Positions 26,552-48,332 of a DNA stretch of 64,000 nt are shown here, one piece after another. The notes below the pieces were generated by a model. It did not search any database. It was not told where the DNA came from and saw only the letters and a list, made by a program, of their open reading frames with translations. This DNA comes from Stellaceae bacterium (lineage in GTDB: Bacteria; Pseudomonadota; Alphaproteobacteria; ATCC43930; CGMCC-115725), in the NCBI GenBank assembly GCA_036500965.1, contig DASYBC010000155.1:1230-65229 (forward strand), in the 5' to 3' direction. A program made the translations under genes and the position numbers. How positions within the stretch are numbered: position 1 is the first letter of the stretch; the number at the start of each line of letters is the position of its first letter.

Positions 26552-26584
26552 CCATGCCTCCCCGCCCGCTCCCCTTCCAAGCCG
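26552..26584 (+). repeat. attL core (33-bp direct repeat)
   Basis: CCATGCCTCCCCGCCCGCTCCCCTTCCAAGCCG, identical to 48300-48332. Flanks diverge on both sides. Confidence 0.8.
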
Positions 26585-26743
26585 CTGATTTGTGCCCTCT
26601 TCTCCCCGATACGCCATTGAAAAGGCGGGTGAATTGGGCGCCTGCACAGTCCCTTAGCGTGCCGTGTCATCCCTCGAAATCCCACCTTGACCCAGAATGA
26701 AAGTGGGGTTAAGAGTGGGATTGGCTCGGCGGAGGAGGGAAGC

Positions 26744-27928
26744 ATGGCGGCGCATATCGGCGGCAGGTTGACGGTCGCGAAGGTCAAGGCGGCGGGGCCA
26801 GGGAAGCACCCGGACGGCGCGAACCTCTGGCTACAGGTCGGGCCGAATAGGTCGCGTTCTTGGTATCTGCGGTATACCCTGCGCGGCCACAGGCACGAAA
26901 TGGGGCTCGGTCCCTATCCGCTGGTCGGGCTCGCGGAGGCTCGCGATCGGGCGACGATGCAGCGCAGGCTACTCCTCGACGGCACCGACCCGATAGAAAC
27001 GCGGAAGGCCAGGCAGCCGACCCGCGATCCCGTCACCTTCGCCGTCGCGGCCAAGCAGTATATCGCCGGCCACGAGAAAGCCTGGAAATCAGCCGACCAC
27101 GCGCGCCAGTGGCGCAACTCTCTTGACCGCTATGTGCTGCCGGCGCTGGGCGAGCGGCCGATCGGCGCGGTTGACACTCACGACGTGCTGTCGATCGTCG
27201 AGCCGCTATGGCAGGACAAGACTGAGACCGCGAGCCGCCTACTGAACCGCATGGGGCTGATACTCGATTGGGCGGCGGCCAGGAAGTTGCGGACTGGCGA
27301 AAACCCGGCGCGGTGGAAAGGGCACCTCGACGCGGTGCTGCCGCGGCGTTCCAAGGTGCAGCGCGAGGAACACCACTCGGCGTTGCCTTATGCCCGGTTG
27401 CCCGACTTCATGGACACACTTCGGAAGCAGACCGAGATTGGAGCGCGTGCGGCCGAGCTGATGATCCTCACCTGCACCCGCACCAGCGAGGTTCGGTTCG
27501 CGGCGTGGGCAGAGATCGACCTGGAAGCCCGGCTCTGGACCATTCCGGCCGAGCGCATGAAAGCTGAGCGCGATTACAGAGTGCCACTCTCCGGCCCGGC
27601 ACTGGCGATCCTGGAAGGTCTGCCGAAGGATGGCGAACACGTGTTCCCCAGCATGGGGCAGCATGCGATTTTGAAGGCGGTTAAGCGAGCCGATCCGACG
27701 GTAACCGCACATGGGTTCCGCTCGGCATTCTCGGACTGGTGCGCCGAGCAGACCGCGTTTCCGGCCGAGGTGCGGGAGATGGCGCTGGCTCACGCCGTAG
27801 GAAGCGCCGTGACGCAAGCTTATAGACGCGGGGATGTCCTGGAGAAGCGGCGGCAGCTCGCGGAGGCATGGACTGGCTTCTGCGCCGGCGGCCCGTCCGC
27901 GGAGAATGTGGTGCCCCTCCGCGCCTGA
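26744..27928 (+). CDS. int: tyrosine-type site-specific integrase (P4-like, DUF4102 arm-binding N-terminus)
   Basis: GRLTVAKVKAAGPGKHPDGANLWLQV...SWYLRY N-domain. Catalytic-domain residues TCTRTSE, HGFRSAFSDW, LAH...YRRGD. GGAGGAGG RBS upstream of the ATG at 26744. Confidence 0.9.
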   Translation: MAAHIGGRLTVAKVKAAGPGKHPDGANLWLQVGPNRSRSWYLRYTLRGHRHEMGLGPYPLVGLAEARDRATMQRRLLLDGTDPIETRKARQPTRDPVTFAVAAKQYIAGHEKAWKSADHARQWRNSLDRYVLPALGERPIGAVDTHDVLSIVEPLWQDKTETASRLLNRMGLILDWAAARKLRTGENPARWKGHLDAVLPRRSKVQREEHHSALPYARLPDFMDTLRKQTEIGARAAELMILTCTRTSEVRFAAWAEIDLEARLWTIPAERMKAERDYRVPLSGPALAILEGLPKDGEHVFPSMGQHAILKAVKRADPTVTAHGFRSAFSDWCAEQTAFPAEVREMALAHAVGSAVTQAYRRGDVLEKRRQLAEAWTGFCAGGPSAENVVPLRA

Positions 27929-27941
27929 GCTGGGACGCCGG

Positions 27942-28256
27942 CTAACCCGCGACTGAGTAGCCGGTGCCGTTCCGCTGAAGCCAAATCCATTGAAAGGGGA
28001 CGCTGAGCGGCGGATAGGTCCCGCCGTCGATCGCCGCGGCACAGGCGACAGTAATCGGGTAGCTCCCCGCATTCCCGGCGATGTCTTTGAGGATGAGGAA
28101 GCCGAGATCATCCGCCAGGGTCAAGGTGATCGGGCCGCCCGAGGTGTTGTTGATGAAGATCACCCCGGCCTCGGAGATCGTGCTGGTGCCGTTGACGGTG
28201 CTCGTGGGCAGCGCGAATGCAGCGTCGCCCAGGTTAGCGATTACGGTCATTGCCAT
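27942..28256 (-). CDS. hypothetical protein (beta-rich, 104 aa)
   Basis: ORF 27942..28271. The ATG at 28256 is preceded by GAGGAGG. No family recognised. Confidence 0.45.
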   Translation of the reverse strand: MAMTVIANLGDAAFALPTSTVNGTSTISEAGVIFINNTSGGPITLTLADDLGFLILKDIAGNAGSYPITVACAAAIDGGTYPPLSVPFQWIWLQRNGTGYSVAG

Positions 28257-28381
28257 CAGGTGCCTCCTCACCGAGCATCGCCGGCCTCCACGCTCCTTGC
28301 GATCTCACTAGTGTCTATCTTAGACTAAGTACCAGTGATGTCTCAAATGCATCAGCACTTTGCCGGTGCCCGGAGTTGCTC

Positions 28382-28726
28382 GTGGAAGACCGTTTGTTAA
28401 CCGTGAAAGAGTTTTGTAAGCAGGCACGTATCTGCCGCGCGACCTTCTACAATATTTGCGCGAGGGGTGAAGGCCCCGAGACGAGCTGCGTCGGCCGGAA
28501 GCGCATGGTTAGCGCCGAGGCGGCGGAGACTTGGCACAAGTGGCGCACCTGCGCCCTGAGCCGGGATGAGGTGAAGAAGCTTGCCGCGGGGATGGTCTGG
28601 GAGGTGCTCCCGGAGCTGATGGACGCGCATGGGGCCGTGCGGGGGCTGGCAGTGTTCGCGCACCAGCTCGGTGTGATCGCAGAGGCGCTGGGTGCCGGGC
28701 AGTCGGGGGAGGCAGCCCGTGGCTGA
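28382..28726 (+). CDS. AlpA/excisionase-type helix-turn-helix protein
   Basis: LLTVKEFCKQARICRATFYNICARGEGPETSCVGRKRMVSAEAAETW matches the AlpA/MerR-like excisionase HTH pattern. No ATG is available, so a GTG at 28382 is proposed. Confidence 0.6.
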   Translation: MEDRLLTVKEFCKQARICRATFYNICARGEGPETSCVGRKRMVSAEAAETWHKWRTCALSRDEVKKLAAGMVWEVLPELMDAHGAVRGLAVFAHQLGVIAEALGAGQSGEAARG

Positions 28727-30737
28727 CGCACAAATCCCCCGGATGGTCCGGGCACAGATGGGCCGCGAGGCACAAGCCCGGCCGATCCGCCTCAACCAGC
28801 AGGTGCTCCAGGCGGGGAAGCGGGGGGCGGAGGCTCCCAGGATGCGCGGGGAGCGCGTCGGCGGCGGCACTGGCCTCGGCCGCGCCTTCGGTGGCGCAGC
28901 CAGCGCGGGTGGCGCAGCCAGCGCGGGTGGCGAAGACGCCTTCCTCAGCGGCAAATTTGAGCAGAACCCCACCATTCGGCTCCTGGGCTTCCCGATCGCG
29001 GGAGGTGGCCTTACCCCTTGGGGCAAGCGCCAGCAAGCCGACCGCTCCGCGATCGACCGCTTCGTGGGCAGCTATCAGGGTCTCAAGCAGAACGGTGCCA
29101 CGGATCAGGAAGCCTTCAAGCAAGCGTGGAAGGCCAACCCGGACGGGATGTTGGCGATGTTCAATCACCCCACGGCTCTACGCAGCTTCGAGGGGCTCAC
29201 GCAGGTCCTCAACCAGGGCACGGCTGCCCCGGCGCCCGCGGAGAAATGGGCTGTCGGCGGCAACGGGGAGCAGTACCAAGTTGACCCGCAGTCCGGGAAG
29301 ATCATCGGCTCTGCGCCGATCCCTGGCTGGCAGGCTGCGCCGCAGGCTCCCGGGAAGCTGATCCGCACGGATAAGGGCTACGGCCTTCTTCAGCCCGACG
29401 GCACGGTCCGGCAGGCGACATGGTCGAACGGAAGGCCGATTGCGGGTGACGGCAGCGGCAGCGGCAGCGGCGGCGGCGTGATTGCCGGCGGGGCCGGCCC
29501 AAGCGGCGCGGTCATGGCGCCTGCAAAGCCCGGCGCTCCAGGCGCAGCCGCTGGCCCTCTCACCCGCTACAGCGGAGACCCCATCCCGCTCGGCGGCACG
29601 GGCAAGCACCCGCTGACCCAGGGCGAGGTGAGCTACCTCAGCAACGCTTCGAATTACATCAGCGATCTCAAGGTGGCCCGGGACTACGCGGATGCCTCCG
29701 GCCCGATCTCCGGAGCAGTGCAGTACGTCGGCGGCAAGTACCTCGGGGTCAATGATCAGGGCGCGACGTACGCCGCGGCGCTCAACCGGCTCGATCAGGG
29801 CTTGTACGCGCAGTACGGGATCAAGGGCTCGGCTGGGGCGAAGCAGCTCATGGCGACCCTGCCGACGCACAGCCAGGCGCCGAGCTACGTGCGGGCGTCG
29901 ATCACGCAGATGATCGACAATGCGCAGGGTGAGTTGCAGAACCGCGCCGATCTAGCAGAGCAGCGCACGCAGGCCGCGCTCCCAGGGACGCTCCGCAACC
30001 AACTTGAAACGAAAGCCGATGTCTTCTCGCTCAGCGACCAGAACGATGCCAGCCCGACATGGGTTGCGCGGAATTACCCGGACAAGCTCACCGGACAGCA
30101 AATCCTGAACCTTTCGAACTCGTCCCCAGGCACCCTGGAGCCGAGCGAGTTGTCTGGGCTGAATGACCGGCTCGACCAGGAGCAGGCTAAGAGAACTGCC
30201 GATGCCCAGGCGCAAGCCACGGCCCAGGCACAGCAAGGGCAGGCGCAGGGGCAGCGGGCGGCCGATCGGCAAGCACAGGCTCAGGTCAGTGCAGGGGCAG
30301 GCTCCGCAGGTGGCCAAGATCAGGACTTCGCGGGGGGCACAGGCGTCGACAGCTCCGCGGCGAAGCAGCCACAGCCCAGCCCAGACAGCAGCCCGGCGGC
30401 TCCGCAGCAGCAGCAGGCCCCGACGCAGGCAGGGACGGCACTCGACGCGAGCGTCCCGGGCGTCTCGGTCGCGCCGAACAGCACCTTCGCCCAGCCGCCG
30501 GCCCAGCCGCAGCCGCAGGGCGACCAGAGCATGCCGCCGGTGGCCCCAGGACCTCAAAGCGACGCTTCACAAGCCGCTCCAGCTCAGGCTGCGGCTCAGG
30601 CTGGACAAATTCCAGTAGCGCAGGCCGCCCAGGCGGCTCAGGCCCTAGCACCAGCCCAAGCTCAGCCGCCAGGCCAACCACCTGGGACCAACCCATACGC
30701 CGCGGCGGTAATCGACGCCATGGGCGGAGGCACCTGA
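28692..30737 (+). CDS. large orphan protein (up to 681 aa) with Gly/Ser and Gln/Ala/Pro low-complexity tracts
   Basis: Long ORF ending 1 nt before the RBS/ATG of the next giant ORF. Start is uncertain: GTG 28692, or ATG 28743 or 28758. No family recognised. Confidence 0.6.
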   Translation: MPGSRGRQPVADAQIPRMVRAQMGREAQARPIRLNQQVLQAGKRGAEAPRMRGERVGGGTGLGRAFGGAASAGGAASAGGEDAFLSGKFEQNPTIRLLGFPIAGGGLTPWGKRQQADRSAIDRFVGSYQGLKQNGATDQEAFKQAWKANPDGMLAMFNHPTALRSFEGLTQVLNQGTAAPAPAEKWAVGGNGEQYQVDPQSGKIIGSAPIPGWQAAPQAPGKLIRTDKGYGLLQPDGTVRQATWSNGRPIAGDGSGSGSGGGVIAGGAGPSGAVMAPAKPGAPGAAAGPLTRYSGDPIPLGGTGKHPLTQGEVSYLSNASNYISDLKVARDYADASGPISGAVQYVGGKYLGVNDQGATYAAALNRLDQGLYAQYGIKGSAGAKQLMATLPTHSQAPSYVRASITQMIDNAQGELQNRADLAEQRTQAALPGTLRNQLETKADVFSLSDQNDASPTWVARNYPDKLTGQQILNLSNSSPGTLEPSELSGLNDRLDQEQAKRTADAQAQATAQAQQGQAQGQRAADRQAQAQVSAGAGSAGGQDQDFAGGTGVDSSAAKQPQPSPDSSPAAPQQQQAPTQAGTALDASVPGVSVAPNSTFAQPPAQPQPQGDQSMPPVAPGPQSDASQAAPAQAAAQAGQIPVAQAAQAAQALAPAQAQPPGQPPGTNPYAAAVIDAMGGGT

Positions 30738-30738
30738 T

Positions 30739-33700
30739 ATGGCTCTTCCCGGTTTTGATCCTGGCTCGGGCTCGGCTGACCCCCTGGCGGACCCGACAGC
30801 AGCAGCACCAGCGCCGCAGCCCGTTGCCGCAGCCGCCGCACCGCAGCCCGTGTATCCGGCAGGTGGTGGTGACGGTGGGCCCACCGGGGCCAGCGGCCCT
30901 TCGCTCACCCCTGCGGCGCAAACCTACGTGGATCGGATGGCCTCGTCCGGGTACACGGCGGAGCAAATCAGCGCCGGGCTCGGTGTACACAGCTACGAGG
31001 GCGGTGGGACCTTCGACCCCACCGCGCAAAACCCCAACTCCGGCGCCGTTGGGATTTCGCAGGACCTCGGGCCGCGGCAGACAGGGCTTTCCGCGTTCCT
31101 CAACTCGACAGGGCAGACACCCAGCGTTGCGTCGGAGACGGACTACGATCTCAGTGAGCTTCGTGGACCCGAGGCTGCGGCGGACAAGGCCGTGCGCTCG
31201 GCGAGCACCGTGGAGGACGCGGCTCGCGCCTGGTCGCACAGTTTCGAACGGCCGGGGGCTGCCGGCGAGGCCAAGGAAGTTCCCTACGCGATCGACCTCG
31301 GCAACCGCGCTCTGCCCCTGGTGCGGGCTCGGCTGGCAGCCGCAGCCGGCGCAGCCGGCGGCTCAACCCCTAGCGGCTCCGAGGCGAACCCAGCATTCAT
31401 CGGTGCGATGACGCAGCAGGCCGACCCGGACCGCGCAGCGATCGACGAGGCGCTGCGGATGCGCGCTCGTGCCCTAGGCCAGCCCGATCCCACGCTTCCA
31501 GGGCCACCACGGGTTGAAAATGTGCAGCTCCCCTCGGGCGAAACGTCGCCACAGCCCGACCCGATCGGCGAGGCGCTGAAGCTGCGCGCTGCGTCCCGTG
31601 CAGCGGCAGGCGCTGCGGCACTGAAGGCGGCGGCCGGCGCGGAGGGCTCCGCGGCTGGCGGCAGCGGCTTCCCCTCCAATCCCCTCCCCGACGCGGGCAT
31701 CCTGCATGAGCTGGCACATGACGGGAAACTCCTCCCTGGTGCTGTGGCCCGCGGACTTACTGATCTCCTCGGCACCCCCGCGGATGCTGTAAGCTCCCTC
31801 GCCAACTACTACGCGGCCAATCCGGCGCAAGCGGCTATAGCAGCGAGCGGCGGCATGGCGCTGAGCGCCCCCGATCTGCCCGCGCAGCCAGGAGCAACGT
31901 CGCCGATCTCCGCCCTCGTGGCCCCTGCGACCTCCAGGTCGATCACCGCAGCAGGGAACCGCGCTGGCGCGGCCCTGGGGATGGGCTCGGGAGTGCTCAA
32001 CAGCCCCGCCGAGAATGGTGATTACGATGTTGCGCACAATGCCGTCTTCGGGCTCGGCCGGTTCGTCGGCGCGGGCGTGGACCCGTTTAATCCGCTCGGG
32101 CTGGTCGGCGTGGGCCGCGGCGCTTACGGCGTGTTGCGCGGAGTTGAAGGGGCCGGAGCGGCTCTCGGCAAGGCCGCACTGAGCGCCGCAGGCACGCACG
32201 TCCTCGCGCCGGTTGCGATTGCTGGCGGGGCGGATGCGGGCGAATACGCCACCGGCGTCCTCGGCGGCCAGGCGGCGGAGCAACGCTTCGGCAACCTGGT
32301 CGGCATCCCTCTCGGGATTGCCTTTCGCGGGGCTGGTGAGGGGCTTCTGCTCAAGGGGCTCGCGGGCGGCAAGGCTGGGTTTGCAGGGGTAGGCAAAGCC
32401 CTGGGCAACGGCCGGCCGGTCTTCGACAATCCCAGCGAAGCACTTAGCAACCTCGGTGACGGAGCCTTCGCAGCAAGCCTGCCCCACCCCGAAGCCGGAT
32501 TGCCGGAAGGCTACAACGTCCCCGGCGCTACCGCGAGCATGGATCAGGCCGGGCAGGCGTTCTTTCAGCAAACTGTGCACGGCGACGCCCTGGCTAGCGG
32601 GAATTATCGGAACCTCCTCGACCGCAACACACAAGCCCTTCGCGGTGCTGCCCCCGGCGGTGATCCGGGCGACGCTCTGAACTACGTCCGCAGTGTGGAG
32701 GATGCTCGGCAGCAGGCCGTTGGGCTTCGCATTCAGCAGGCTCAAGCTGATGCGGACCTGGCGCAAATTGCCGCAAGCCGAGGCACCAGCGGGCAGGCGC
32801 TGATGGTCGGCGGCCCTGGCAAGGCGCAGCTCTTCGACTACGGTGGGGAGGTGGTGAACCAGCTGGCCGCGGCGCGGGATGACGCCAAGGGCATGGCGGA
32901 TGCGGCGTGGGATGCGGCCCGGCAGGACGGCTTCACCTCGGCGACCACGGACACGCGCCCCCTGTACAACGCGATTGAAGGGCTCGCTCAGAGCAGCATC
33001 AAGAACCTCCAGGCTCCAGGCATCTTCCCCTATCGCGAGCTTGCGCCGCTGTATCAGGACGGCGACCTGCGCGGGATGTTCGATGCGATGGGCGCGCGGA
33101 AGGCGGGCACCACCGCTGCCGGCGCCGGGAACGGGCCGAATGCTGTGCTCCAAGGCCCGGCGAGCCTGGACACCTTGCACTCCCTGGAAAGCAGCCTGGG
33201 GGCTGCCGCGCGGCAGGAACAGGACGCGATCCGCTCGGGCAGCGGCTCGGGCTCGCCGCTCCGCCTGCGCAATCTCAGCGCCGTGCGGAATGTCGTCACG
33301 CAAACGATTGAGCAGGGCGCACAGTTGTCCGGGAACTACGCCGGCATGCGCAATGCGATGAATGCCACGGCAGCGTATTACAACACGTTCGGGCATGGGG
33401 TGATCGGGGACTTGCTTGGCTCGGCTGACCACGGGGATGCACCACGAAAGCTCGCAAGCTGGCTCGGGAACTCGACCAAGGCGCAAGCCGCCTCGCAGGA
33501 CTTCACCACTGCGATGGCGCACGTCGGCGGCGCTCCGGGGCTGAACAACGCCCTCGCCGACTACCTGCGGCAGGACTACCTCCTCGTCCGCGGGGAAGGC
33601 GGCCCGCTGGCCGGGCAAAAATGGGCAGATAACCACGCGGGCTTCCTTCAGGGTGCCAGCGGCCCCGGCGCTACCGACCCCTTCTCGCGCTTGCGCAGCG

Positions 33701-34740
33701 ACGTGGAGCGGTTGAACCAAAGCGACGCGGCGATCCCACAGCTCCGGGACGCAGCGGCGCGGGATCAGGACCGTGTTGACGTGCGAATGGCGCAGAACTT
33801 TCTCGGCGCTAATGAGGGGCAGGAGCTGGAAGCCGCGCTGCGGGGGCAGGCTCCCGCGGTGGGGATGCAGCGCCTTGTGGATATGACTAAGCAGGACGGC
33901 ACCGGGCAGGCGTTCCGCGGCCTTCAGCGGATGCTCTTCGACCGCACCCTTGCCGCGGGGCAGAAGTATGGCCCCGATGGCGGCACCTACTACTCCGGCC
34001 GGGCAGCACAAGCCTTCATGCAGGCGAACCGCGGTGCCTTCGGCGTGATGCGCCGGGCAGACCCCGTGGTCGGCGGAAACCTGGACCAGCTCGTCAACGG
34101 GCTTGCCGCGGAGGATGCGATCCGCGCGCGGCCGGATGTCGCCGGGCTGCCGAAGAGCCTCGCCACAGCCGCACCGATTGTCGGCCAGAGCGGGGTGAGC
34201 AAGGCTATCGGCGTGGCACTGCCTTATGCCGGGCGGCTGATTGGCGCGGACCTCGGGCGGAAGGCGGATACCGGGACGATCCAAATCCCCGGCATCGGCG
34301 CCGAGATCGGCGGGAAGGCCGCCGAAGGCATCTATCAGATGGTCACGGGGCGAGAAGCGCCGCACATCGCCGCGATGAATAACCTTCGGAATGCAATGTT
34401 CGACCCGGCGCTGACGCAGCAGTACCTCAGCGAGCAGAGGGCCGCGATGGCGCAGGCTGGCGGAGAAGCTGGCATGGGGTTCGCGGAAAGCCCGCTGCGT
34501 GGCAGGGCGGCCGGGCATCGCGCCGGGGTTCAAGCGACAGCGGTGCTCGGGCGGGGCATGACGCCCCTAGGGGCGCCCCCGCTCACACTAAGCCCGCAGC
34601 ATCCATGGGTCCGAGCGGCTGGTGTTGAGGCCGCGCACAGCGTTCTGAATGCGGATGAGACCACGCCGCCCGTGCAGCATCGCTACCCTGCGGTGCAGGG
34701 GCGAGGGCGAGGGCCGGGGCGCACGCCTTGGGATAGGTAA
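30739..34740 (+). CDS. giant orphan protein (1333 aa) with an N-terminal phage-tail-lysozyme-like domain
   Basis: GGAGG RBS upstream of the ATG at 30739. Residues ~55-190 (SAGLGVHSYEGGGTFDPTAQNPNSGAVGISQ...AARAWSHSFERPG) fit my recollection of the Phage_lysozyme2 / tail-tip lysozyme pattern (E-S-G-F-x-P ... SGA-x-GI-x-Q ... FERP). The remainder is Gly/Ala-rich with no recognised family. Confidence 0.65.
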   Translation: MALPGFDPGSGSADPLADPTAAAPAPQPVAAAAAPQPVYPAGGGDGGPTGASGPSLTPAAQTYVDRMASSGYTAEQISAGLGVHSYEGGGTFDPTAQNPNSGAVGISQDLGPRQTGLSAFLNSTGQTPSVASETDYDLSELRGPEAAADKAVRSASTVEDAARAWSHSFERPGAAGEAKEVPYAIDLGNRALPLVRARLAAAAGAAGGSTPSGSEANPAFIGAMTQQADPDRAAIDEALRMRARALGQPDPTLPGPPRVENVQLPSGETSPQPDPIGEALKLRAASRAAAGAAALKAAAGAEGSAAGGSGFPSNPLPDAGILHELAHDGKLLPGAVARGLTDLLGTPADAVSSLANYYAANPAQAAIAASGGMALSAPDLPAQPGATSPISALVAPATSRSITAAGNRAGAALGMGSGVLNSPAENGDYDVAHNAVFGLGRFVGAGVDPFNPLGLVGVGRGAYGVLRGVEGAGAALGKAALSAAGTHVLAPVAIAGGADAGEYATGVLGGQAAEQRFGNLVGIPLGIAFRGAGEGLLLKGLAGGKAGFAGVGKALGNGRPVFDNPSEALSNLGDGAFAASLPHPEAGLPEGYNVPGATASMDQAGQAFFQQTVHGDALASGNYRNLLDRNTQALRGAAPGGDPGDALNYVRSVEDARQQAVGLRIQQAQADADLAQIAASRGTSGQALMVGGPGKAQLFDYGGEVVNQLAAARDDAKGMADAAWDAARQDGFTSATTDTRPLYNAIEGLAQSSIKNLQAPGIFPYRELAPLYQDGDLRGMFDAMGARKAGTTAAGAGNGPNAVLQGPASLDTLHSLESSLGAAARQEQDAIRSGSGSGSPLRLRNLSAVRNVVTQTIEQGAQLSGNYAGMRNAMNATAAYYNTFGHGVIGDLLGSADHGDAPRKLASWLGNSTKAQAASQDFTTAMAHVGGAPGLNNALADYLRQDYLLVRGEGGPLAGQKWADNHAGFLQGASGPGATDPFSRLRSDVERLNQSDAAIPQLRDAAARDQDRVDVRMAQNFLGANEGQELEAALRGQAPAVGMQRLVDMTKQDGTGQAFRGLQRMLFDRTLAAGQKYGPDGGTYYSGRAAQAFMQANRGAFGVMRRADPVVGGNLDQLVNGLAAEDAIRARPDVAGLPKSLATAAPIVGQSGVSKAIGVALPYAGRLIGADLGRKADTGTIQIPGIGAEIGGKAAEGIYQMVTGREAPHIAAMNNLRNAMFDPALTQQYLSEQRAAMAQAGGEAGMGFAESPLRGRAAGHRAGVQATAVLGRGMTPLGAPPLTLSPQHPWVRAAGVEAAHSVLNADETTPPVQHRYPAVQGRGRGPGRTPWDR

Positions 34741-36508: not shown

Positions 36509-37195
36509 TCAGCCTCGCCTATCGGCAGGTTCAAGCGGAGGAAACACCGGGCCGCGCCGGCGATGGATCAGCCCCAGCATGCCGAGGCCGCCTAGCAGGA
36601 CCCAGAGGCTCCGCGGCTCGGGCACCGCGGCGCTCGCCACCAGCATCCCCGCGTATTGCGCCGGGGAAGATGTCTCGTAGGCATCGGAGCCATAGCTGAT
36701 CGTGCCAACCGCGCCGGTGCTGATCTGGGCTGGGTTTTCCGAGCCCGGCGGAGTGCCATAGACCTCATCCGTGTCCCTCGCGTTGATGAAGAACAGCGAG
36801 AGGCTGGCGGTGCCGTCGGCCGGGTCCGCAGTCAGCCCTATTGTCCATATCGGGGTCTGGCTATCGAAGCCCTCCGTCGTGAAGTCGGCCAGGGTGATCG
36901 ACAGATTTCCGACATGCAGGTTGAATGACGCCAACTGTGGCGGAAATGGATACGGTGTCGGCGGCGTTGTCGGTGAGGTCGGGGGCGGCGCGAAGAGGCT
37001 GTCGGTGCTGAGCGACAAGTCGCCGTTCACCGTGAACGACAGGGACAGCGGCGGTGCCGGGCCGTCGAGCCCGTTGTTGGGCGGCACGTTCGAAATCGTT
37101 TCCCAGGTGTAAGTGACTGCGGCGGCCTGTGCACCGCTGGCGAGCCCAGCGAGGCATAGAGCAGCGCAGAGCGCGTAAGCGGCGCGACGCATCAT
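36509..37195 (-). CDS. PEP-CTERM sorting-domain secreted protein
   Basis: Signal peptide MMRRAAYALCAALCLAGLASGAQA. C-terminus VPEPRSLWVLLGGLGMLGLIHRRR is the canonical PEP motif plus TM helix plus Arg cluster. Confidence 0.75.
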   Translation of the reverse strand: MMRRAAYALCAALCLAGLASGAQAAAVTYTWETISNVPPNNGLDGPAPPLSLSFTVNGDLSLSTDSLFAPPPTSPTTPPTPYPFPPQLASFNLHVGNLSITLADFTTEGFDSQTPIWTIGLTADPADGTASLSLFFINARDTDEVYGTPPGSENPAQISTGAVGTISYGSDAYETSSPAQYAGMLVASAAVPEPRSLWVLLGGLGMLGLIHRRRGPVFPPLEPADRRG

Positions 37196-37400
37196 GACGA
37201 CCCTCCCGTTCGGGCGCGCGGCTTCCCGGCTGCGCCTTTCACTCTGACGCGAGAGTATGCTCACCCGGATCGCGGCCGGCGTGACAACCCGTGAGGTGCG
37301 TCAGGATGCCGCTGGGCAGCTCGACGGCCGGCAGGTCATGGCGACGACAACCTCTGCTAAGCTGCCCTCGGGAGGACGCAACTTTCCCGAAGGCAAGCAC

Positions 37401-38535: not shown

Positions 38536-38838
38536 GTGTCCTGGTTTTGTGTCCTGGAAAAAATGGCAGTTTTTACCCCCTAATGCACTGAAAAACATTG
38601 TGTCCTCGGTGTCCTGGTTTTTCGCGAAGAGCTTCTGCATACTGTGTCTCCTATAGAGCTGGAGTTTTCAACAAAAGTTAGGACACGGAGGTAAGAATGG
38701 CAGTTTCTCTCTCGTAAGTGGCTGAAAGAGAACAAAACCCGTGTCCTAACCGTGTCCTGGTGGGTCCTGACTTTTTCAGGAAAAGTGAACAAAATCAATA
38801 CAAGCCGTGTCCTGACTTTTTCAGCAAAACCAGGACAC
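38536..38838. repeat. iteron array (about 10 copies of GTGTCCT(G/A), both orientations): putative replication origin
   Basis: Direct copies at 38536, 38549, 38600, 38609, 38741, 38752 and 38807. Variants at 38644 and 38762. Inverted copies at 38680-38686 and 38831-38838. Embedded longer repeats TCCTGACTTTTTCAG (x2) and AATGGCAGTTT (x2). The region is AT-rich and non-coding, directly 3' of the helicase gene. Confidence 0.7.
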
Positions 38839-42065: not shown

Positions 42066-42088
42066 GGCAGGAGCCCGGCGGGGCTGGC

Positions 42089-42841: not shown

Positions 42842-43095
42842 GACGCTGCCTCCGGGCTGGGCAGCTCCCAACCCTCCCGCAGTGCCCACAGGGGATCAAA
42901 GATTTCGAGGCTGTCCGGGTCGGCGTGTTCCATGATCTCCGGTTCGGCATCGGTGATAACGCGCACGATCGTGCGCCACTGCGCCTCGGTGAACGGGATG
43001 GTCACTCCGCGCGGCGCTGCCCGGCGCGTCCTCGGCGATCCCGGCGCTCCGGGGAACTGGATCACGTTGCCGCTGCCGTCGCTGCTGGTGCTCAT
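42838..43095 (-). CDS. hypothetical protein (85 aa)
   Basis: ATGA overlaps at both ends, 42838-42841 and 43092-43095. Confidence 0.45.
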   Translation of the reverse strand: MSTSSDGSGNVIQFPGAPGSPRTRRAAPRGVTIPFTEAQWRTIVRVITDAEPEIMEHADPDSLEIFDPLWALREGWELPSPEAAS

Positions 43096-43325
43096 TCTGT
43101 TCTCCCCTGGCTCTGCTGGCTCTGGCTTATCAGGTGCTGGATTGCGAGTTCGACGACGCGCGGGATGGGGGCAGGCCGGCCGCTTTGCCTCTGCCGGCCG
43201 CGCTCCCAATTCCCAAGCTGGCCGAGAGACACGCCGAGGGCCGCTGCAAGCTGCCACTGGGTCAGCCGCAGGCGCTTTCGCAGGCTTCTAAGTTCCTCGC
43301 CGGTCATAGCTCGGAGATATGCCAT
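43092..43325 (-). CDS. XRE-family helix-turn-helix regulator
   Basis: LRSLRKRLRLTQWQLAAALGVSLGQLGNWERG is a Cro/CI-type HTH. Confidence 0.7.
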   Translation of the reverse strand: MAYLRAMTGEELRSLRKRLRLTQWQLAAALGVSLGQLGNWERGRQRQSGRPAPIPRVVELAIQHLISQSQQSQGRTE

Positions 43326-44438: not shown

Positions 44439-45392
44439 TTACCCGCGGTGGAGGATGCGTCCTCCATTTTTCTTTTGTGGTTTGCCTACGCTGCGCAGGG
44501 TTTCTACAGGGCCAGGTTGTGGGATGTCCGCGCTGCGGACATCATCCAGCGTTGTACTGTTGGTTGCGGGCTCCGGGCTCGCTGCCGCAGCCAGCTCCCC
44601 GATCACCGCCCCGATCACAGCCTTAAAGACCCGGCCGACCCGCAGCCGACCTTGAGGCTCCGACGCGTCTGCCTGCCGTGCTTCCCGCTCCTCACATCCG
44701 CAGCTCGTCCGCCTTCCGGCCTTGAGCAGGTCGGAGCGGTAGTCGGCGACGTGACCGCAAGCGCAGCGACAGCGCCACGCCGTGTTGTGTCCTCGGGATC
44801 GCCGCGCCCGGCCCGTCACAGTGAGCCGGCCGAAGCACTGGCCCATCAGGTTTGCGGCACTTCGGTGCAGCGGGCCGAGCCCGAGCTTCAAGCATCCGCA
44901 GCTTCGGGTGGAACCGTAGATCAGGCAATCCCGCGCCACGTCCTTGGTGATGCCGCAGGAGCAACGGCAGCGCCAGAAGCCCGGAACCTCCGAGCGTGCC
45001 AGCACTTCCAGGCGGCCGAAAGCGAAGCCTCGCAGGTCGCGCGGGAAGCCTCCTCTCTGGTCTGCGAGGGCAGCCGGGTCATCCTCGAAGTGCATGCCCG
45101 AGGGCCATTTGTCGAGTGCCGCGGGGAAGCCCAGCCGTTCGAGCACCTCGGCGAAGATTGCCTCGGTGAGCGTCCGGCGCTGATCGCACGGGGCTGCCGT
45201 CAGCTCGGGCAGGATCAGCCGCTCTTCCACCCGCTTGCGGGACCAGAAGTCACCAGAGGCGAGCCGGAACCAGCGCCGGCCGTCCCAAGCCGCGCCCCGC
45301 TCGCGCAGCTCCGCGGCTACCTCTGACGCCAACTCGTCGAACGCGGCCTCGGCGGTGGTCGGGGCTCGCGCCGCATCTGCTATTTCAGTCAT
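44439..45392 (-). CDS. protein with two tandem Cys-rich zinc-ribbon modules
   Basis: Two copies of FGRL-x-V...WRC-x-C-x-CG...SCGC: FGRLEVLARSEVPGFWRCRCSCG...RSCGC and FGRLTVTGRARRSRGHNTAWRCRCACG...TSCGC. Confidence 0.55.
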   Translation of the reverse strand: MTEIADAARAPTTAEAAFDELASEVAAELRERGAAWDGRRWFRLASGDFWSRKRVEERLILPELTAAPCDQRRTLTEAIFAEVLERLGFPAALDKWPSGMHFEDDPAALADQRGGFPRDLRGFAFGRLEVLARSEVPGFWRCRCSCGITKDVARDCLIYGSTRSCGCLKLGLGPLHRSAANLMGQCFGRLTVTGRARRSRGHNTAWRCRCACGHVADYRSDLLKAGRRTSCGCEEREARQADASEPQGRLRVGRVFKAVIGAVIGELAAAASPEPATNSTTLDDVRSADIPQPGPVETLRSVGKPQKKNGGRILHRG

Positions 45393-45401
45393 GTCCCTGC
45401 C

Positions 45402-46244
45402 TCAGACCGCGATCAGCTTGCCACGCCACCAAATCCGCCCGAAGCCAGGCTCAGGGTGCTCGGTGACGACTTGCACCAGCTCAGGTGGCAAAAGCTCGCC
45501 GCTCGCCCACGTGAGCACCGCAAAGCCGCTGCGCCAATCGGTCGGACCGGCTTCGAGGTAATTCGTGAACAAGGACGAGTTGACATCGGCGACGCAGCCA
45601 CAATCCACGCCCCAGACCGTGCCTCGGAGCGAGGTTACGGGGATGATCTTTTGGCTGTGGGTATGGCCGGTCACGTAAGTTGCGCCTGCCCGGACGGCAT
45701 TTCGATACGCGGCGTGAGTGCCCCCGGTCAGACGGTGGGCGATGTAGGCTGGACTGTTGCTGACCGAATTAACGCGGACTTGCCAGCTGAAAGCCCAAGC
45801 TGGGAAGAAGTCTTCAAGGCAGGTGCCGTGAAGTCCTTCAAGCTGTGGCGCCTGGTTGCTGAGAAAGCTGGAAAGTCGCAGGCAGTGATTTCCGAGGTTC
45901 CACACGCGCCGCGCCTTGGGCGCCGCGATCTGGATTTCACGCAACCGAGTTTGTGCCTCGGCGATCTCGTCAACGACTTTCGGGCGTTCTTCCCACAGGA
46001 TGCGGCTGTGCTTGCTGATGCTCGGGAAGTCGCACACGTCGCCGTTCGCGACGATGAGCTGCGGCTTGAGCTTCCGCGCAAGCATGACGGCCGCGCGCCA
46101 TGCGGTCGGCGCTGGGCTGCGATGGTCGAAGTGACAGTCGGAGAAGGCCAGAGCCACGCCATCCCGCAGGGTGACATCGATCCGGCTTTCCATCCGGGCG
46201 GTCGTCTCTGCCGCGCTTTCCGCGGTCTTGTGTGCTTGTGACAA
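45402..46244 (-). CDS. calcineurin-like metallophosphoesterase
   Basis: SDCHFD, NGDVCD, GNHC and GHTH motifs in canonical order. Confidence 0.75.
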   Translation of the reverse strand: MSQAHKTAESAAETTARMESRIDVTLRDGVALAFSDCHFDHRSPAPTAWRAAVMLARKLKPQLIVANGDVCDFPSISKHSRILWEERPKVVDEIAEAQTRLREIQIAAPKARRVWNLGNHCLRLSSFLSNQAPQLEGLHGTCLEDFFPAWAFSWQVRVNSVSNSPAYIAHRLTGGTHAAYRNAVRAGATYVTGHTHSQKIIPVTSLRGTVWGVDCGCVADVNSSLFTNYLEAGPTDWRSGFAVLTWASGELLPPELVQVVTEHPEPGFGRIWWRGKLIAV

Positions 46245-46359
46245 CTTCGGTTCCTTCGGGGCTTTATCGCCCTCTTTGAGCCCTCGCGTCAGCCCGGCTG
46301 TTGCCGTTGGTGCGCTGGCGCGGGGTCGTGGTGTGGCTACGCGGGATGCGCAGCCAGGA

Positions 46360-46566: not shown

Positions 46567-46590
46567 CTTTGGTCGTACCTCCGTCAAACC

Positions 46591-46613
46591 GGAGTTAGGT
46601 GATACGTAACTCC
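46591..46613. promoter_or_regulatory. palindromic candidate operator upstream of the RHH gene
   Basis: GGAGTTA-N9-TAACTCC, 25 nt upstream of the RHH start. TAACTC is repeated again at 46615-46620. Confidence 0.3.
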
Positions 46614-46951
46614 ATAACTCATTATCCCGGTCAGCCTGGGGAGGTCGCAACTGCGGCAACATCGCCGTGCTCACAGCCTGGAAACCCCGTAGGAATTCGG
46701 AGCGCTGCTGAGCGCGCAGGCAACGCCGCGCTCCCGCCTGCCCCGGACCAGCCCGCGAAAGCCCTCAGAAACTCCTACAAAAGGTGCCATGCTGCTGCCG
46801 TGCTGGCGCCGTCGGGCTCAGCGCCGCACCAACCTAATCAGTCACTTGTGAGGATGGGAAAGGCGTAGGACGGCCGACCCGCATGCTGTTTAATCTGGTG
46901 CGCGCACGCAGGCGCGTGACGCCGGCGGGCATGCCAGGGCCAGCGGAAGCC

Positions 46952-47554
46952 TCAGTCTTTCCACAACCCGTCGAACCGTGTGGCGCTCATCTGGGCATAG
47001 CGCGCGGTGTTGTTGACGTTTGCATGGCCGAGGTAGGCCGCGAGCGACAGGCTATCCATCCCTTGGTTGACCAGCCGAAAGCCACAGCCGTGGCGCAATA
47101 GGTGTGGATGCACGTCGGCGATCCCGGCACGCTCTGCGGCCTTCGTGAGCATCTTAAAGAAGCCGTTGCGCGTCATCGGCGCACCTCGGCTGGTCATGAA
47201 TACGAAGCGGCTGCCGACTGGCTGCGCGCGACGCAGCTTGCGAAGCAACCGCACCTCGCGACCGCGCAGTGGATGCACGCCATCCCGACCGCCCTTGGCG
47301 CGGATCACCGTCACGTGGCCAGCATCTAGGTCAAGCTGGCGCCACTGCATGCTGATCAGCTCGCTGACGCGGAGCCCGTGCGTATAGGCCATCAAGATCA
47401 TAGCGCGGTCGCGCTCGTTGTCGGCGGTCTTGACGATCTGATCCACCTCGGCCTCGGTCAGGTAGCCACGCTTTGGTGCGAGGTGCGCGTCAGTATCCAA
47501 ATCGGTGCTCGGTTCGGCTTCTGTTCTTACGGCGCGAACGGCGGATTTGTTCAT
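46952..47554 (-). CDS. small tyrosine recombinase (catalytic domain only, FimB/FimE/Xer-like, 200 aa)
   Basis: YTHGLRVSEL, RAKGG, HPHLLRHGCGFRL, LGHANVNNTARY (R..H-x-x-R..Y catalytic set). AGGAG RBS upstream of the ATG at 47554. Confidence 0.8.
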   Translation of the reverse strand: MNKSAVRAVRTEAEPSTDLDTDAHLAPKRGYLTEAEVDQIVKTADNERDRAMILMAYTHGLRVSELISMQWRQLDLDAGHVTVIRAKGGRDGVHPLRGREVRLLRKLRRAQPVGSRFVFMTSRGAPMTRNGFFKMLTKAAERAGIADVHPHLLRHGCGFRLVNQGMDSLSLAAYLGHANVNNTARYAQMSATRFDGLWKD

Positions 47555-47568
47555 ACGTGGGCTCCTTT

Positions 47569-47598
47569 CAGTATCCAATATGGTCGGTTTGGATACTG
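47569..47598. promoter_or_regulatory. lox/dif-like site: perfect 10-bp inverted repeats around a 10-bp spacer
   Basis: CAGTATCCAA-TATGGTCGGT-TTGGATACTG, 15 bp upstream of the small recombinase start. A third arm copy CAGTATCCAA lies at 47491-47500 inside the gene. Confidence 0.45.
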
Positions 47599-48299
47599 CC
47601 GCCAAGGGGCGAATTTCGTCGCGCACCGTCAGCCGCGCATCGACATCGTCGCGCAGGCGCATCACCGTCTTGGGACGCGGCGGCACGGATCAGTGCGTCA
47701 CGGCTCAAGCGCTGTCGCGCTGCGCGCTTGGAACAATTTAGGAACTGACCCACTGGGGTGAGCTTTCCCCCAAGGCAAGCATGCTTGGAGCGGCAGTTCC
47801 GGGGACCCGGTGGGAGCGGGCAGCCAAGATATAAAATTAAAAAGAGAGCCCCTATGGGACTTCGCAACCCAAGCGTGCTGGCGCTGGGGTCGCGCTCGGG
47901 AAATATTACAAAAGCAGGCTGTGGGAGCTTGGTTGTGCCTGCGGGCAGGGCACGCGCGGAGCGGGCAATGGGGCTGAACGGCTGGGTAGGCGCTCGCGCT
48001 GCGGCCCTGGCGAAGACGAGCAGCAGTCGCAACCAGCCACCGTCCCCAACCCAGCCGCCGATAGTCTACTTCCTTAGTCCCGCACTCCTACCGAGCAACC
48101 TCTTTATGAGTGCCCAGTGTGCGAGATCGGCCCGGCCGCCGGCAATCCCCGAGCACCGATGCGCCGAGACGCAGCCGCGCGACCCGGCCGTTCGGGATTT
48201 TCGGGTGCTGCGCGGGTGCCCTGCTGCAAAGGTGGTTGAAAGTGGGGTTGAGCCGTCGAAATTTCGTGAGAGCGGCGGTTTTGCTGGGTTGCGTGAGGA

Positions 48300-48332
48300 C
48301 CATGCCTCCCCGCCCGCTCCCCTTCCAAGCCG
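48300..48332 (+). repeat. attR core (33-bp direct repeat)
   Basis: Identical to 26552-26584. Confidence 0.8.

What the first reader, a model, noticed from the sequence alone, without database searches (positions are those of the whole stretch)
26552..48332. 21.8-kb integrative element with perfect 33-bp attL/attR in a non-tRNA target
CCATGCCTCCCCGCCCGCTCCCCTTCCAAGCCG occurs at 26552-26584 and again, identical and co-oriented, at 48300-48332. The flanks diverge immediately on both sides. A P4/DUF4102-type integrase starts 160 bp inside the left copy. Everything between the copies is phage/plasmid-like or orphan, while treY lies to the left and tRNA-Cys, rpoZ and spoT lie to the right. The unusual point is the target. 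I cannot fold the core into a tRNA or tmRNA 3' end (no T-loop, no acceptor stem), and tRNA-Cys lies 300 bp beyond attR, untouched. At attL the chromosomal flank plus the first half of the core form a GC hairpin (about 26535-26566). The target may therefore be a terminator or the 3' end of an unannotated sRNA downstream of treY. No capsid, terminase, portal, tail or T4SS gene is recognisable, so the element fits neither a classical prophage nor an ICE.
Basis: partly seen in the sequence, partly recalled or inferred. Interest (0 to 1): 0.65.

Follow-up and report, generated by a model that had tools for sequence, protein, structure and literature searches.

The report
Genomic island inserted in a small-RNA gene
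A 21.8-kb mobile island sits at the 3' end of a previously unannotated, very conserved ~100-base RNA gene of Stellaceae soil bacteria, much as other islands sit in tRNA genes, but the DNA to its right is not the original neighbour, so this is not a simple insertion.

Summary
The 33-mer occurs exactly twice (36 nt with one mismatch), and a P4-type integrase starts 160 bp inside the left copy.

The target is neither a tRNA nor merely a terminator. The left copy is the 3' half of the last hairpin of a ~100-nt RNA-like gene (26476-26577). This gene has its own conserved promoter. It is 92-98% identical in about 40 Stellaceae loci and always lies at the end of the glycogen/trehalose operon. Rfam has no match.

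All 13 close integrase homologues that could be assessed lie directly downstream of this RNA. More distant homologues lie beside tRNA-Ser or tRNA-Sec. Four relatives carry decayed insertions at the same site, with the same arm motif and repeated core, followed by the ancestral neighbour, a cupin gene.

No relative has a treY to tRNA-Cys interval. In the closest genome the two loci are 1.83 Mb apart and inverted. tRNA-Cys has lost its tRNA-Asn partner. The right repeat is followed by 10 nt of element-side arm and then 300 bp of orphan DNA. The island therefore lies at a rearrangement junction, or less likely a misjoin.

It is a new variant of a known kind and of moderate interest.

The parts
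26405..26433 (+). Sigma-70-like promoter of the RNA gene (TCTACA, 17-nt spacer, TATACT)
   Evidence: Promoter scan in the window and in L005. A TATAnT box lies 11-15 nt upstream of CTTGGG in 31 of 38 assessable loci, and 22-24 nt upstream in two more.
26476..26577 (+). Conserved ~100-nt RNA-like gene with two hairpins (26481-26529 and 26530-26571). It is the integration target and is absent from Rfam.
   Evidence: 92-98% nt identity in about 30 species whose treY is only 64-92% identical at protein level. Covariance-model hits of 104-122 bits, one per locus. Consensus fold; 99.7% of cells are paired but only one pair is compensatory. No Rfam or ARAGORN hit.
26552..26584 (+). Left repeat (attL core). 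It comprises the last ~23-26 nt of the RNA gene, supplied by the element, plus the first 10 nt of the P' arm.
   Evidence: Synteny with L002, L018, L019 and L029 ends at 26572-26591.
26698..26713 (+). Arm-type site TGAAAGTGGGGTTAAG on the P' arm, 31 nt upstream of int
   Evidence: Only two copies in the window, the other at 48237. The same motif occurs in the P' arms of L086, L087 and L097.
26744..27928 (+). Int1, a P4-type tyrosine integrase (394 aa) with an arm-binding domain
   Evidence: Pfam and NCBIfam. The R, HxxR and Y motifs can be read in the sequence. Homologues at 69-77% identity always lie next to the RNA gene.
28376..28726 (+). Small HTH_17 (AlpA/Xis-like) protein, a candidate excision or regulatory factor
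   Evidence: Weak Pfam HTH_17 hit, 25.5 bits. A 34%-identical homologue follows int in L086, L089 and L094.
28743..34740 (+). Two giant low-complexity proteins (664 aa, and 1267 aa starting at 30937). The second has an N-terminal phage tail lysozyme domain.
   Evidence: No PADLOC or NCBIfam hit.
36509..37264 (-). PEP-CTERM protein (cargo)
38536..38838 (.). Iteron array (GTGTCCTG, 6 copies) in a lower-GC stretch; candidate replication origin
   Evidence: All six copies in the window cluster here, against 1.1 expected. Sequence; GC dip.
38903..40315 (-). P4-family primase/helicase (D5_N, DUF5906, Pox_D5)
   Evidence: Pfam, PHROGs DNA primase at 1e-69, TIGR01613 above its cut-off.
43092..43307 (-). 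HTH_3 repressor-like regulator
44439..46193 (-). HNH-endonuclease-like protein (317 aa) and metallophosphoesterase (263 aa)
   Evidence: PHROGs and Pfam.
46952..47662 (-). Int2, a small FimB/FimE-like tyrosine recombinase (200-236 aa) without an arm-binding domain
   Evidence: Pfam at 2.5e-39. Best NCBIfam hits are tyrosine-type DNA invertases. Homologues are about 196 aa and named FimB/FimE by JGI. Contexts elsewhere are unrelated.
48237..48252 (+). Arm-type site TGAAAGTGGGGTTGAG on the P arm, 48 nt before the right repeat
   Evidence: The same motif lies at the same distance in the attR-type ends of L029, L006, L009 and L019.
48300..48332 (+). Right repeat: P-side core plus the first 10 nt of P' (ttccaagccg)
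   Evidence: An independent Logan contig ends at 48329, inside it.
48333..48633 (.). 300-bp orphan spacer. It is neither the ancestral flank of the RNA gene nor that of tRNA-Cys.
   Evidence: No similarity to any of about 180 fetched loci. Only the source contig carries its 46-aa ORF.
48634..48707 (-). tRNA-Cys. Synteny with relatives resumes exactly at its CCA end, and its usual downstream tRNA-Asn is missing.

Best explanation
The region 26552-48332 is an integrative island of a P4-type tyrosine-integrase family. This family targets the 3' end of a small, highly conserved RNA gene at the end of the alpha-glucan (glg/tre) operon in Stellaceae.

Proposed mechanism:
- Int1 binds arm-type sites (TGAAAGTGGGGTTRAG) on both sides of the element's attP.
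- It also binds the dyad-symmetric terminal hairpin of the RNA gene and recombines within about 23 bp of identity that starts in the hairpin loop.
- The element carries its own copy of the last ~25 nt of the RNA, so the gene is rebuilt at attL. This is the arrangement seen in tRNA and tmRNA islands.
- After excision, possibly helped by the small HTH_17 protein, a P4-family primase/helicase with an adjacent iteron array could replicate the circle.
- No packaging or transfer genes are present. The element is therefore either helper-dependent (satellite-like) or a decaying mosaic.

What is shown: the repeats; the arm sites; an integrase with its catalytic motifs in place; the exclusive association of the integrase clade with the RNA; empty and occupied sites in relatives.

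What is inferred: expression of the RNA; the crossover position; excision and replication competence.

The right boundary is not a pristine attR. It reads P arm, core, 10 nt of P', 300 bp of orphan DNA, then tRNA-Cys. This fits integration next to, or in tandem with, an earlier family member. A large rearrangement would have followed; a single 1.83-Mb inversion relative to the closest genome would suffice. Its endpoints are the 3' ends of the RNA gene and of tRNA-Cys.
For: - Exact 33-bp repeat, no other copy.
- The integrase has its three domains and visible catalytic motifs, 160 bp from attL.
- The 16-mer arm motif occurs only twice in 64 kb, once on each arm and in the same orientation.
- The RNA block is 92-98% identical across species whose treY is 64-92% identical. 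There is one copy per locus, and it has a conserved promoter.
- Synteny with four relatives stops inside the core.
- 13 of 13 assessable Int1 homologues at 69-77% identity have the RNA 165-270 bp upstream on the same strand. Homologues at 45-53% identity lie beside tRNA-Ser or tRNA-Sec.
- Nine species have the empty site treY-RNA-cupin.
- L029, L006, L009 and L019 have insertions of 0.8-6.6 kb bounded by a second core copy, each preceded by the same arm motif. In L029, L006 and L019 the native cupin flank follows directly; in L009 another 3.6 kb intervenes.
- A P4-family primase and an iteron cluster are present.
- Rearrangement: coordinates in the L002 genome, loss of tRNA-Asn, and the break at the CCA end of tRNA-Cys.
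Against: - No empty site matching this window's two flanks exists in any relative. Simple insertion cannot be demonstrated for this copy.
- The right repeat carries 10 nt of P', and the 300 bp beyond it is unexplained.
- The island is a mosaic. GC is 0.66-0.71 in the left half and 0.57-0.68 in the right half, and the gene strands are opposite. It has a second recombinase near the right end.
- The cargo is not shared with other family members.
- No attP junction was found in IMG/VR.
- The RNA's expression is untested, and its fold has almost no covariation support.
- The source is a metagenome contig, so the joins rest on assembly alone.
Confidence: 0.7

Rival explanations
1. Two different islands were fused by the inversion. 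The left part (attL, Int1, HTH_17, the giant proteins) belongs to the RNA-gene island. The right part (tRNA-Cys-proximal 300 bp, Int2, regulators, primase, iterons) belongs to an island integrated at the 3' end of tRNA-Cys. On this view 26552-48332 is not one mobile unit, and the right core copy is a relic carried inside the tRNA-Cys island.
For: - Foreign DNA runs exactly from the 3' end of the RNA gene to the CCA end of tRNA-Cys.
- The two RNA genes face each other, and each is followed in its own orientation by a recombinase gene.
- The two halves differ in GC and in gene strand.
- One inversion between positions inside two such islands reproduces the window's gene order from the L002 genome's order.
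Against: - The right end has the full family-specific P arm (arm motif, then 48 nt, then the core) in the orientation expected for an Int1-type attR. L029, L006, L009 and L019 show the same layout.
- Int2 is a FimB/E-like recombinase without an arm-binding domain. Its homologues are not next to tRNA genes in the contexts seen.
- No partial tRNA-Cys repeat exists in the window.
- Int1 relatives can carry a D5-type primase in the same element (L107, L140).
Confidence: 0.15
2. The right-hand join (core or 300 bp to tRNA-Cys) is an assembly chimera. The genome or the community holds two near-identical copies of the element or its right end. The assembler then linked the left flank of one copy to the right flank of another.
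For: - The source is a metagenome contig.
- A k=31 Logan assembly of SRR11833492 breaks inside the core and inside tRNA-Cys.
- The window's arrangement has no counterpart in any relative.
Against: - The exact repeat is only 33-36 bp, shorter than the reads and than the final k-mers of usual assemblers.
- The 58-kb JGI contig and the longer window agree across both junctions.
- The best match to both flanks is the same genome, L002/L082. Both flanks therefore come from one lineage.
- A chimera would still require a copy of P arm, core and 10 nt of P' lying 300 bp from a tRNA-Cys that lacks tRNA-Asn. The anomaly would not go away.
Confidence: 0.1
3. The conserved block is not an independent sRNA gene. 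It is the 3' UTR and terminator of the glg/tre operon, or a conserved DNA site, and the integrase simply uses a terminator hairpin.
For: - It always lies directly after the last gene of the operon, which is treY, or malQ where treY is absent.
- It ends in a long GC hairpin.
- There is almost no covariation and no expression data.
Against: - About 100 nt at 92-98% identity, loops included, is far more constraint than a terminator needs.
- A -35/-10 pair is conserved at a fixed distance upstream of the block.
- The sequence between the stop codon and the promoter is not conserved.
- No U-tract follows the hairpin, and no terminator-like site was scored.
Confidence: 0.2
4. The 33-mer is a dispersed REP-type repeat and the two copies are unrelated to integration.
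For: It is GC-rich and half of a palindrome.
Against: - There are only two copies in 64 kb.
- Relatives have one copy per 22-kb locus, always at the RNA gene, plus attR-type relics at the same site.
- The 17-mer hits in IMG/VR lie in unrelated contexts and have no RNA or arm motif.
Confidence: 0.01

Closest known systems
P4-type (Arm-DNA-bind_3/DUF4102) integrase islands in tRNA and tmRNA genes (Williams 2002, NAR 30:866, PMC100330; cited from the reference list of PMC12540744 and from my own knowledge, not read here)
   Same: - Same three-domain integrase, placed next to the intact RNA gene and on the same strand.
- The identity block runs from a hairpin loop to just past the 3' end of the RNA.
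- The element supplies a replacement 3' end.
- Arm-type sites lie on both arms.
- The site accumulates tandem and decayed insertions.
- Integrases 45-53% identical to Int1 lie at tRNA-Ser and tRNA-Sec.
   Different: The target is not a tRNA or tmRNA and has no cloverleaf, T-loop or acceptor stem. It is an undescribed two-hairpin RNA restricted to a Stellaceae subclade.
Prophages integrating into other small non-coding RNA genes: phiEf11 in ffs (4.5S RNA) of Enterococcus faecalis (PMC12540744), and pneumococcal prophages in csRNA genes (cited there)
   Same: The attB lies inside a small non-tRNA RNA gene, and the core identity covers part of the RNA.
   Different: Those RNAs are known families and the elements are complete phages. 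Here the RNA has no family, and the element lacks virion genes.
Satellite P4 and P4-like integrative elements
   Same: P4-type integrase, a P4-family primase/helicase C-terminal domain (TIGR01613), an iteron array beside it, small HTH regulators, and no capsid or terminase genes.
   Different: No sid/psu/delta/epsilon-like genes or cos site were recognised. The primase module is on the opposite strand, 11 kb from int. A second recombinase and two giant low-complexity proteins are present.
Polypartite ICEs of Mesorhizobium and Bradyrhizobium, and integrase-driven chromosomal inversions (PMC5882170, PMC9174649, PMC5495485; abstracts only)
   Same: Mobile-element DNA is bounded by two different RNA-gene attachment points that lie megabases apart in a related genome. 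The gene order is explained by an inversion with endpoints at att-type sites.
   Different: There are no conjugation genes. Both halves of the Int1 att system (attL-type and attR-type) lie in the same segment. No second arm-binding integrase specific for tRNA-Cys is present. The reciprocal junction was not seen.

Membership tests
Site-specific integrative island of the tRNA-island type (tyrosine integrase, 3'-end-restoring) | Integrase gene next to one end | tested here: met
   Int1 at 26744-27928, 160 bp from the left repeat.
Site-specific integrative island of the tRNA-island type (tyrosine integrase, 3'-end-restoring) | Direct repeats at both ends, one of them being the 3' end of a host RNA gene that stays intact | tested here: met
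   The RNA at attL matches the family consensus through its 3' end.
Site-specific integrative island of the tRNA-island type (tyrosine integrase, 3'-end-restoring) | Uninterrupted (empty) site in relatives that matches both flanks of this copy | tested here: not met
   The left flank and the RNA match in 30 species. The right flank in relatives is a cupin gene, not tRNA-Cys. In the closest genome tRNA-Cys lies 1.83 Mb away.
Site-specific integrative island of the tRNA-island type (tyrosine integrase, 3'-end-restoring) | The same integrase clade and the same att architecture recur at the same target in other genomes, including sites with both native flanks | tested here: met
   13 of 13 close Int1 homologues lie next to the RNA. 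Four relatives have a second core copy preceded by the arm motif; in L029, L006 and L019 the cupin flank follows directly, and in L009 another 3.6 kb intervenes.
Site-specific integrative island of the tRNA-island type (tyrosine integrase, 3'-end-restoring) | Excision to a circle (attP) with restoration of attB | not testable with these tools
   No reads are available, and no attP was found in IMG/VR.
tRNA or tmRNA gene as target | The core is part of a gene recognised as tRNA or tmRNA | tested here: not met
   ARAGORN and Rfam (including E up to 10) find nothing at 26350-26750 or 48150-48633.
Known RNA family (Rfam 15) | Covariance-model match at or near the gathering score | tested here: not met
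   Only miRNA-model noise at 15-25 bits against gathering scores of 47-105.
Structured small RNA gene (generic) | Own promoter, conserved sequence, and a fold supported by covariation | tested here: inconclusive
   Promoter and conservation are met. The fold is compatible with the sequences (99.7% paired) but has only one compensatory pair. Expression was not tested.
P4-type integrase (Arm-DNA-bind_3 + Phage_int_M + catalytic domain) | The three domains, and the catalytic R...HxxR...Y motifs | tested here: met
   Pfam 7e-20, 1e-28 and 3e-11. TRTSE, HGFRS and QAYRR can be read.
Satellite P4-like element | P4-family primase/helicase with a nearby origin | tested here: met
   TIGR01613 at 170 bits against a cut-off of 108.7. 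Iterons at 38536-38838. Origin function is inferred.
Satellite P4-like element | Helper-exploitation genes (sid/psu/delta/epsilon analogues) and a cos site | tested here: not met
   No such Pfam or PHROG hits among the ORFs scanned. A cos site was not searched.
Prophage | Capsid, portal, terminase and tail genes | tested here: not met
   None found. There is only a tail-lysozyme domain at the N-terminus of a 1267-aa protein.
ICE | Relaxase, coupling protein and T4SS genes | tested here: not met
   No such domains in the ORFs scanned. Small ORFs were not all scanned.
Anti-phage defence island | Proteins matching known defence systems | tested here: not met
   No PADLOC hit for 10 cargo proteins.
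REP-type dispersed repeat | Many copies per genome | tested here: not met
   Two copies in 64 kb and one per relative locus. A whole genome of the species is not available.
Polypartite element split by att-site inversion | A reciprocal junction elsewhere in the same genome, and a second integrase specific for the second att | not testable with these tools
   The genome is not available. Int2 is FimB/E-like and shows no tRNA association.

The most novel reading that the evidence does not exclude
The ~100-nt block is a new, expressed, structured RNA family of Stellaceae, tied to the end of the glycogen/trehalose operon. A clade of P4-type integrases whose relatives use tRNA-Ser and tRNA-Sec has switched to it as its dedicated attachment site. 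Islands at this site and at tRNA-Cys have driven a 1.83-Mb chromosomal inversion, leaving an island bounded by two different RNA genes.
Probability: 0.4. Interest if true: 0.6.

Novelty: new variant of a known kind. Interest (0 to 1): 0.5.

Why it matters
- It extends the rule that integrases target the 3' ends of small stable RNA genes to an RNA that no database describes. Here the integration site served as a pointer to a new, strongly constrained non-coding RNA in an abundant but little-studied family of soil bacteria.
- It gives a clean natural example of an integrase clade changing target class, from tRNA-Ser/Sec to a non-tRNA hairpin. That is useful for understanding, and perhaps re-targeting, arm-binding tyrosine integrases.
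- It shows that a perfect pair of repeats with an adjacent integrase does not guarantee a simple insertion. In this case the island marks a megabase-scale synteny break.

Tried and rejected
- **Rfam and ARAGORN on both repeat regions.** Nothing found.
- **Fold of 26396-26600 alone.** z = -1.3, not informative.
- **The 450-aa minus-strand ORF next to the RNA in L002.** I first took it as the ancestral neighbour 'X'. It is a spurious antisense frame. The protein search with it found nothing and was wasted. The real neighbour is a small cupin gene, frameshifted in L002.
- **Partial tRNA-Cys 3' repeat.** I looked for one that would mark the far end of a tRNA-Cys island. None exists.
- **N-terminal integrase domain upstream of Int2, assuming a frameshift.** None found.
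- **Int2 relatives.** None in IMG/VR. Contexts in metagenomes are unrelated, with no tRNA and no core.
- **attP in IMG/VR using a 17-mer from the core.** Eleven chance hits in unrelated contexts.
- **Inverted repeats between int2 and tRNA-Cys, as for a fim-like switch.** Nothing convincing.
- **The 300-bp spacer and its 46-aa ORF.** No homologue anywhere.
- **tRNA-Sec or tRNA-Ser mimicry by the RNA.** No sequence similarity.
- **PADLOC on the cargo.** Nothing.
- **More divergent copies of the RNA that would provide covariation.** Only a truncated relic in L024/L037.

Full report
**Observation.** The 33-mer is present exactly twice in the 64-kb window, at 26552-26584 and 48300-48332. Both copies are on the + strand, there are no further copies with up to three mismatches, and none is expected by chance. 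The identity extends three bases to the left with one mismatch, giving 35 of 36. The flanks diverge on both sides. An integrase gene starts at 26744, 160 bp after the left copy. Its product has the three domains of P4-type integrases: Arm-DNA-bind_3 (formerly DUF4102), Phage_int_M and the catalytic domain. The R, HxxR and Y motifs are visible in the sequence. To the left lies the last gene of a glgB-glgX-treZ-malQ-treY cluster. To the right lie tRNA-Cys (48634-48707, minus strand), rpoZ, spoT, lepB and rnc.

**Source.** The sequence is a soil metagenome contig (JGI 3300036780). It comes from an uncultured member of the Stellaceae (Alphaproteobacteria). The closest species-level genome is MAG GCA_963738185.1, with treY 92% and SpoT 95% identical.

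**The target is a conserved small RNA gene.**
- I fetched the treY loci of 80 species and compared them with the window.
- A block of about 100 nt (window 26476-26577) is 92-98% identical in about 30 Stellaceae species whose treY proteins are only 64-92% identical. The sequence on either side of the block is not conserved.
- A covariance model built from it finds one copy per locus at 104-122 bits. The copy is always on the operon strand and always directly after the operon.
- In 13 further metagenome loci found through the integrase rather than through treY, the block is again present. Where enough upstream sequence is available it follows treY, or malQ in the two loci that lack treY.
- A sigma-70-like promoter (TCTACA, 17-nt spacer, TATA[C/G]T) lies at a fixed distance upstream. 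A TATAnT box lies 11-15 nt before the block in 31 of 38 loci.
- The consensus fold has two hairpins, 26481-26529 and 26530-26571. Across 41 sequences 99.7% of pair cells are standard pairs, but only one pair shows a compensatory change. The fold is therefore compatible with the data, not proven by it.
- One-base indels inside the block rule out a conserved reading frame.
- ARAGORN and Rfam 15 recognise nothing there, even at E = 10.
- I conclude that this is most likely an unannotated sRNA gene. An operon 3'-UTR or terminator element is the weaker alternative.
- The repeat starts in the loop of the second hairpin and runs through the 3' end of the block. This is the geometry known from tRNA and tmRNA islands.

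**The integration module is a family trait.**
- All 13 close homologues of Int1 (69-77% identity) that have enough upstream sequence carry the RNA gene 165-270 bp upstream on the same strand.
- Homologues at 45-53% identity lie in the same way next to tRNA-Ser (L110, L118, L124) or tRNA-Sec (L121, L156). The Int1 clade therefore appears to have moved from tRNA targets to this RNA.
- The 16-mer TGAAAGTGGGGTTRAG occurs only twice in the window. One copy is 114 nt right of the left core, just upstream of int. The other is 48 nt left of the right core. Both have the same orientation. This is the layout expected for arm-type sites of an integrase with an arm-binding domain.
- Nine related species have the empty arrangement treY-RNA-cupin, with the cupin gene convergent.
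- Four others (L029, L006, L009, L019) have insertions of 6.6, 2.7, 2.0 and 0.8 kb. Each ends with the same arm motif, about 50 nt of spacer, and a second, partly decayed copy of the core. In L029, L006 and L019 the native flank and the cupin gene follow directly; in L009 another 3.6 kb intervenes.
- These four insertions lack an integrase and look like relics. The site is an insertion hot spot, and the 33-mer is not a dispersed repeat.

**The right side is not a simple attR.**
- Synteny between the window and four relatives stops inside the left core (26572-26591) and never resumes up to position 64000. The cupin gene is absent.
- In the closest genome, treY and the RNA lie at 0.78 Mb and spoT-rpoZ-tRNA-Cys at 2.60 Mb of the same 3.14-Mb contig, in the opposite relative orientation.
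- A single inversion with endpoints at the 3' end of the RNA gene and the 3' end of tRNA-Cys converts that order into the window's.
- In that genome and in a second relative, tRNA-Cys is followed after about 33 nt by tRNA-Asn. In the window, homology begins exactly at the CCA end of tRNA-Cys (48633/48634), and tRNA-Asn is missing.
- The 300 bp between the right core and tRNA-Cys matches nothing.
- The last 10 nt of the 33-mer (ttccaagccg) are not RNA-gene sequence. They are the start of the element-side P' arm, whose consensus in the family is TTCAAGCYCTTGA.
- The right copy is therefore 'P arm, core, first 10 nt of P''. That is what an attP or a tandem junction looks like, not the 'P arm, core, host flank' seen in the relatives.
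- The simplest history has two steps. First, integration beside or in tandem with an earlier family member. Second, a rearrangement that joined this point to a tRNA-Cys locus which itself carried foreign DNA.
- I cannot exclude a fusion of two islands (confidence 0.15) or an assembly misjoin (0.1).
- The misjoin is unlikely because the exact repeat is only 33-36 bp. The 58-kb JGI contig agrees with the window across both junctions. Both flanks find their best match in the same genome. A k=31 Logan contig spans 35934-48329 and stops in the core, as expected for a 33-bp repeat.

**Content of the island.**
- The left half (GC 0.66-0.71, genes mostly on the + strand) holds several genes:
  - Int1.
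  - A weak HTH_17 (AlpA/Xis-like) protein.
  - Two giant Ala/Gly/Gln-rich proteins of 664 and 1267 aa. The second has an N-terminal phage tail lysozyme domain.
  - A PEP-CTERM protein.
  - Evidence: - The right half (GC 0.57-0.68, genes on the minus strand) is a phage- or plasmid-like replication and regulation module:
  - A P4-family primase/helicase.
  - Six GTGTCCTG iterons directly beside it, and nowhere else in the window.
  - An HTH_3 regulator.
  - An HNH-like protein.
  - A metallophosphoesterase.
  - A small FimB/FimE-like tyrosine recombinase, Int2.
  - Evidence: - No capsid, terminase, portal, T4SS, relaxase or known defence protein was found.
- Cargo is not shared with other members of the Int1 family beyond the HTH_17 gene. 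Two more distant relatives also carry a D5-type primase.
- The element is best described as a mosaic, P4-like, non-self-transmissible integrative island.

**Comparison with what is known.**
- Integration into the 3' end of small stable RNA genes is the classical behaviour of this integrase family at tRNA and tmRNA genes (Williams 2002, from my own knowledge and the reference list of PMC12540744).
- Prophage integration into other small RNAs has been described, namely ffs/4.5S and pneumococcal csRNA (PMC12540744). The principle is therefore not new.
- Three things are new. The target RNA is undescribed. There is an integrase clade dedicated to it. The island lies at a megabase-scale synteny break, with a different RNA gene at each end.
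- That last feature recalls polypartite ICEs and integrase-linked inversions (PMC5882170, PMC9174649, PMC5495485; abstracts only). This element lacks their defining features.

**Verdict.**
- Right: it is a real integrative element, the target is not a tRNA, and the sRNA guess holds.
- Wrong: it is not a simple insertion into a treY to tRNA-Cys interval, and tRNA-Cys is a breakpoint rather than 'untouched'.
- Novelty: new variant of a known kind. Interest: 0.5.

Noticed in passing
window 48783-49490: A ~700-bp window-specific insertion lies between tRNA-Cys and rpoZ and carries an orphan 143-aa ORF (48932-49363) with no Pfam, PHROG or NCBIfam hit. The two relatives have only about 28 nt here. 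An identical copy occurs in a 1-kb Logan contig of SRR11833492.
   Followed up: partly
window 50005-50084: Tandem 18-nt repeats (CGAGGACGATCTCGCGGT and variants) lie inside the 3' part of the rpoZ ORF (49553-50164, 203 aa). They give a repetitive acidic C-terminal tail. rpoZ homology with relatives covers only the first ~75-105 residues.
   Followed up: no
window 26434-26475; L002 12811-12856; L018: In the window and its two closest relatives, about 36-40 extra nt lie between the promoter and the conserved RNA block. They consist of one or two extra copies of the block's first ~12 nt (CCAACACGAGCTTGGGT). The RNA may therefore be about 140 nt long in these species.
   Followed up: partly
L095 3915-4020 and L098 2848-2953: In these loci the RNA gene follows malQ directly because treY is absent. 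The linkage is to the end of the alpha-glucan operon, not to treY itself.
   Followed up: yes
L024 12780-12860 and L037 2381-2420: A more distant species keeps the promoter and the first ~45 nt of the RNA block and then diverges completely. This is an apparently truncated RNA gene at the same position.
   Followed up: partly
L119, L120, L144, L146, L164: In several distant Int1 homologues, a tRNA-Ser or tRNA-Sec lies on the opposite strand 5-9 kb downstream of int and faces it. This may be the other end of the island, or an int-distal arrangement.
   Followed up: no
L002 14741-16620: In the closest genome, just beyond the cupin gene, lies an AAA_21/AAA_15 (AbiEii-like ATPase) gene followed by a DUF4276 gene. 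This looks like a defence-type gene pair next to the hot spot.
   Followed up: no
window 46952-47662 and loci L167-L170: Int2 belongs to a large soil-metagenome family of ~196-aa FimB/FimE-like tyrosine recombinases (449 hits at E<=1e-20). Contigs carrying them often end within a few hundred bp downstream, which suggests a variable or repeated region there.
   Followed up: partly
L082 versus L083, upstream of tRNA-Asn: The genes beyond tRNA-Asn differ between two close relatives: a phosphoesterase in one, gyrA-coaD-luciferase-like in the other. The tRNA-Cys/tRNA-Asn pair is therefore itself a synteny break point in this group.
   Followed up: no
window 47758-48396: A 212-aa ORF called by JGI spans the P arm, the right core and 64 bp beyond. 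It has no homologue or domain and is probably a spurious high-GC frame.
   Followed up: partly
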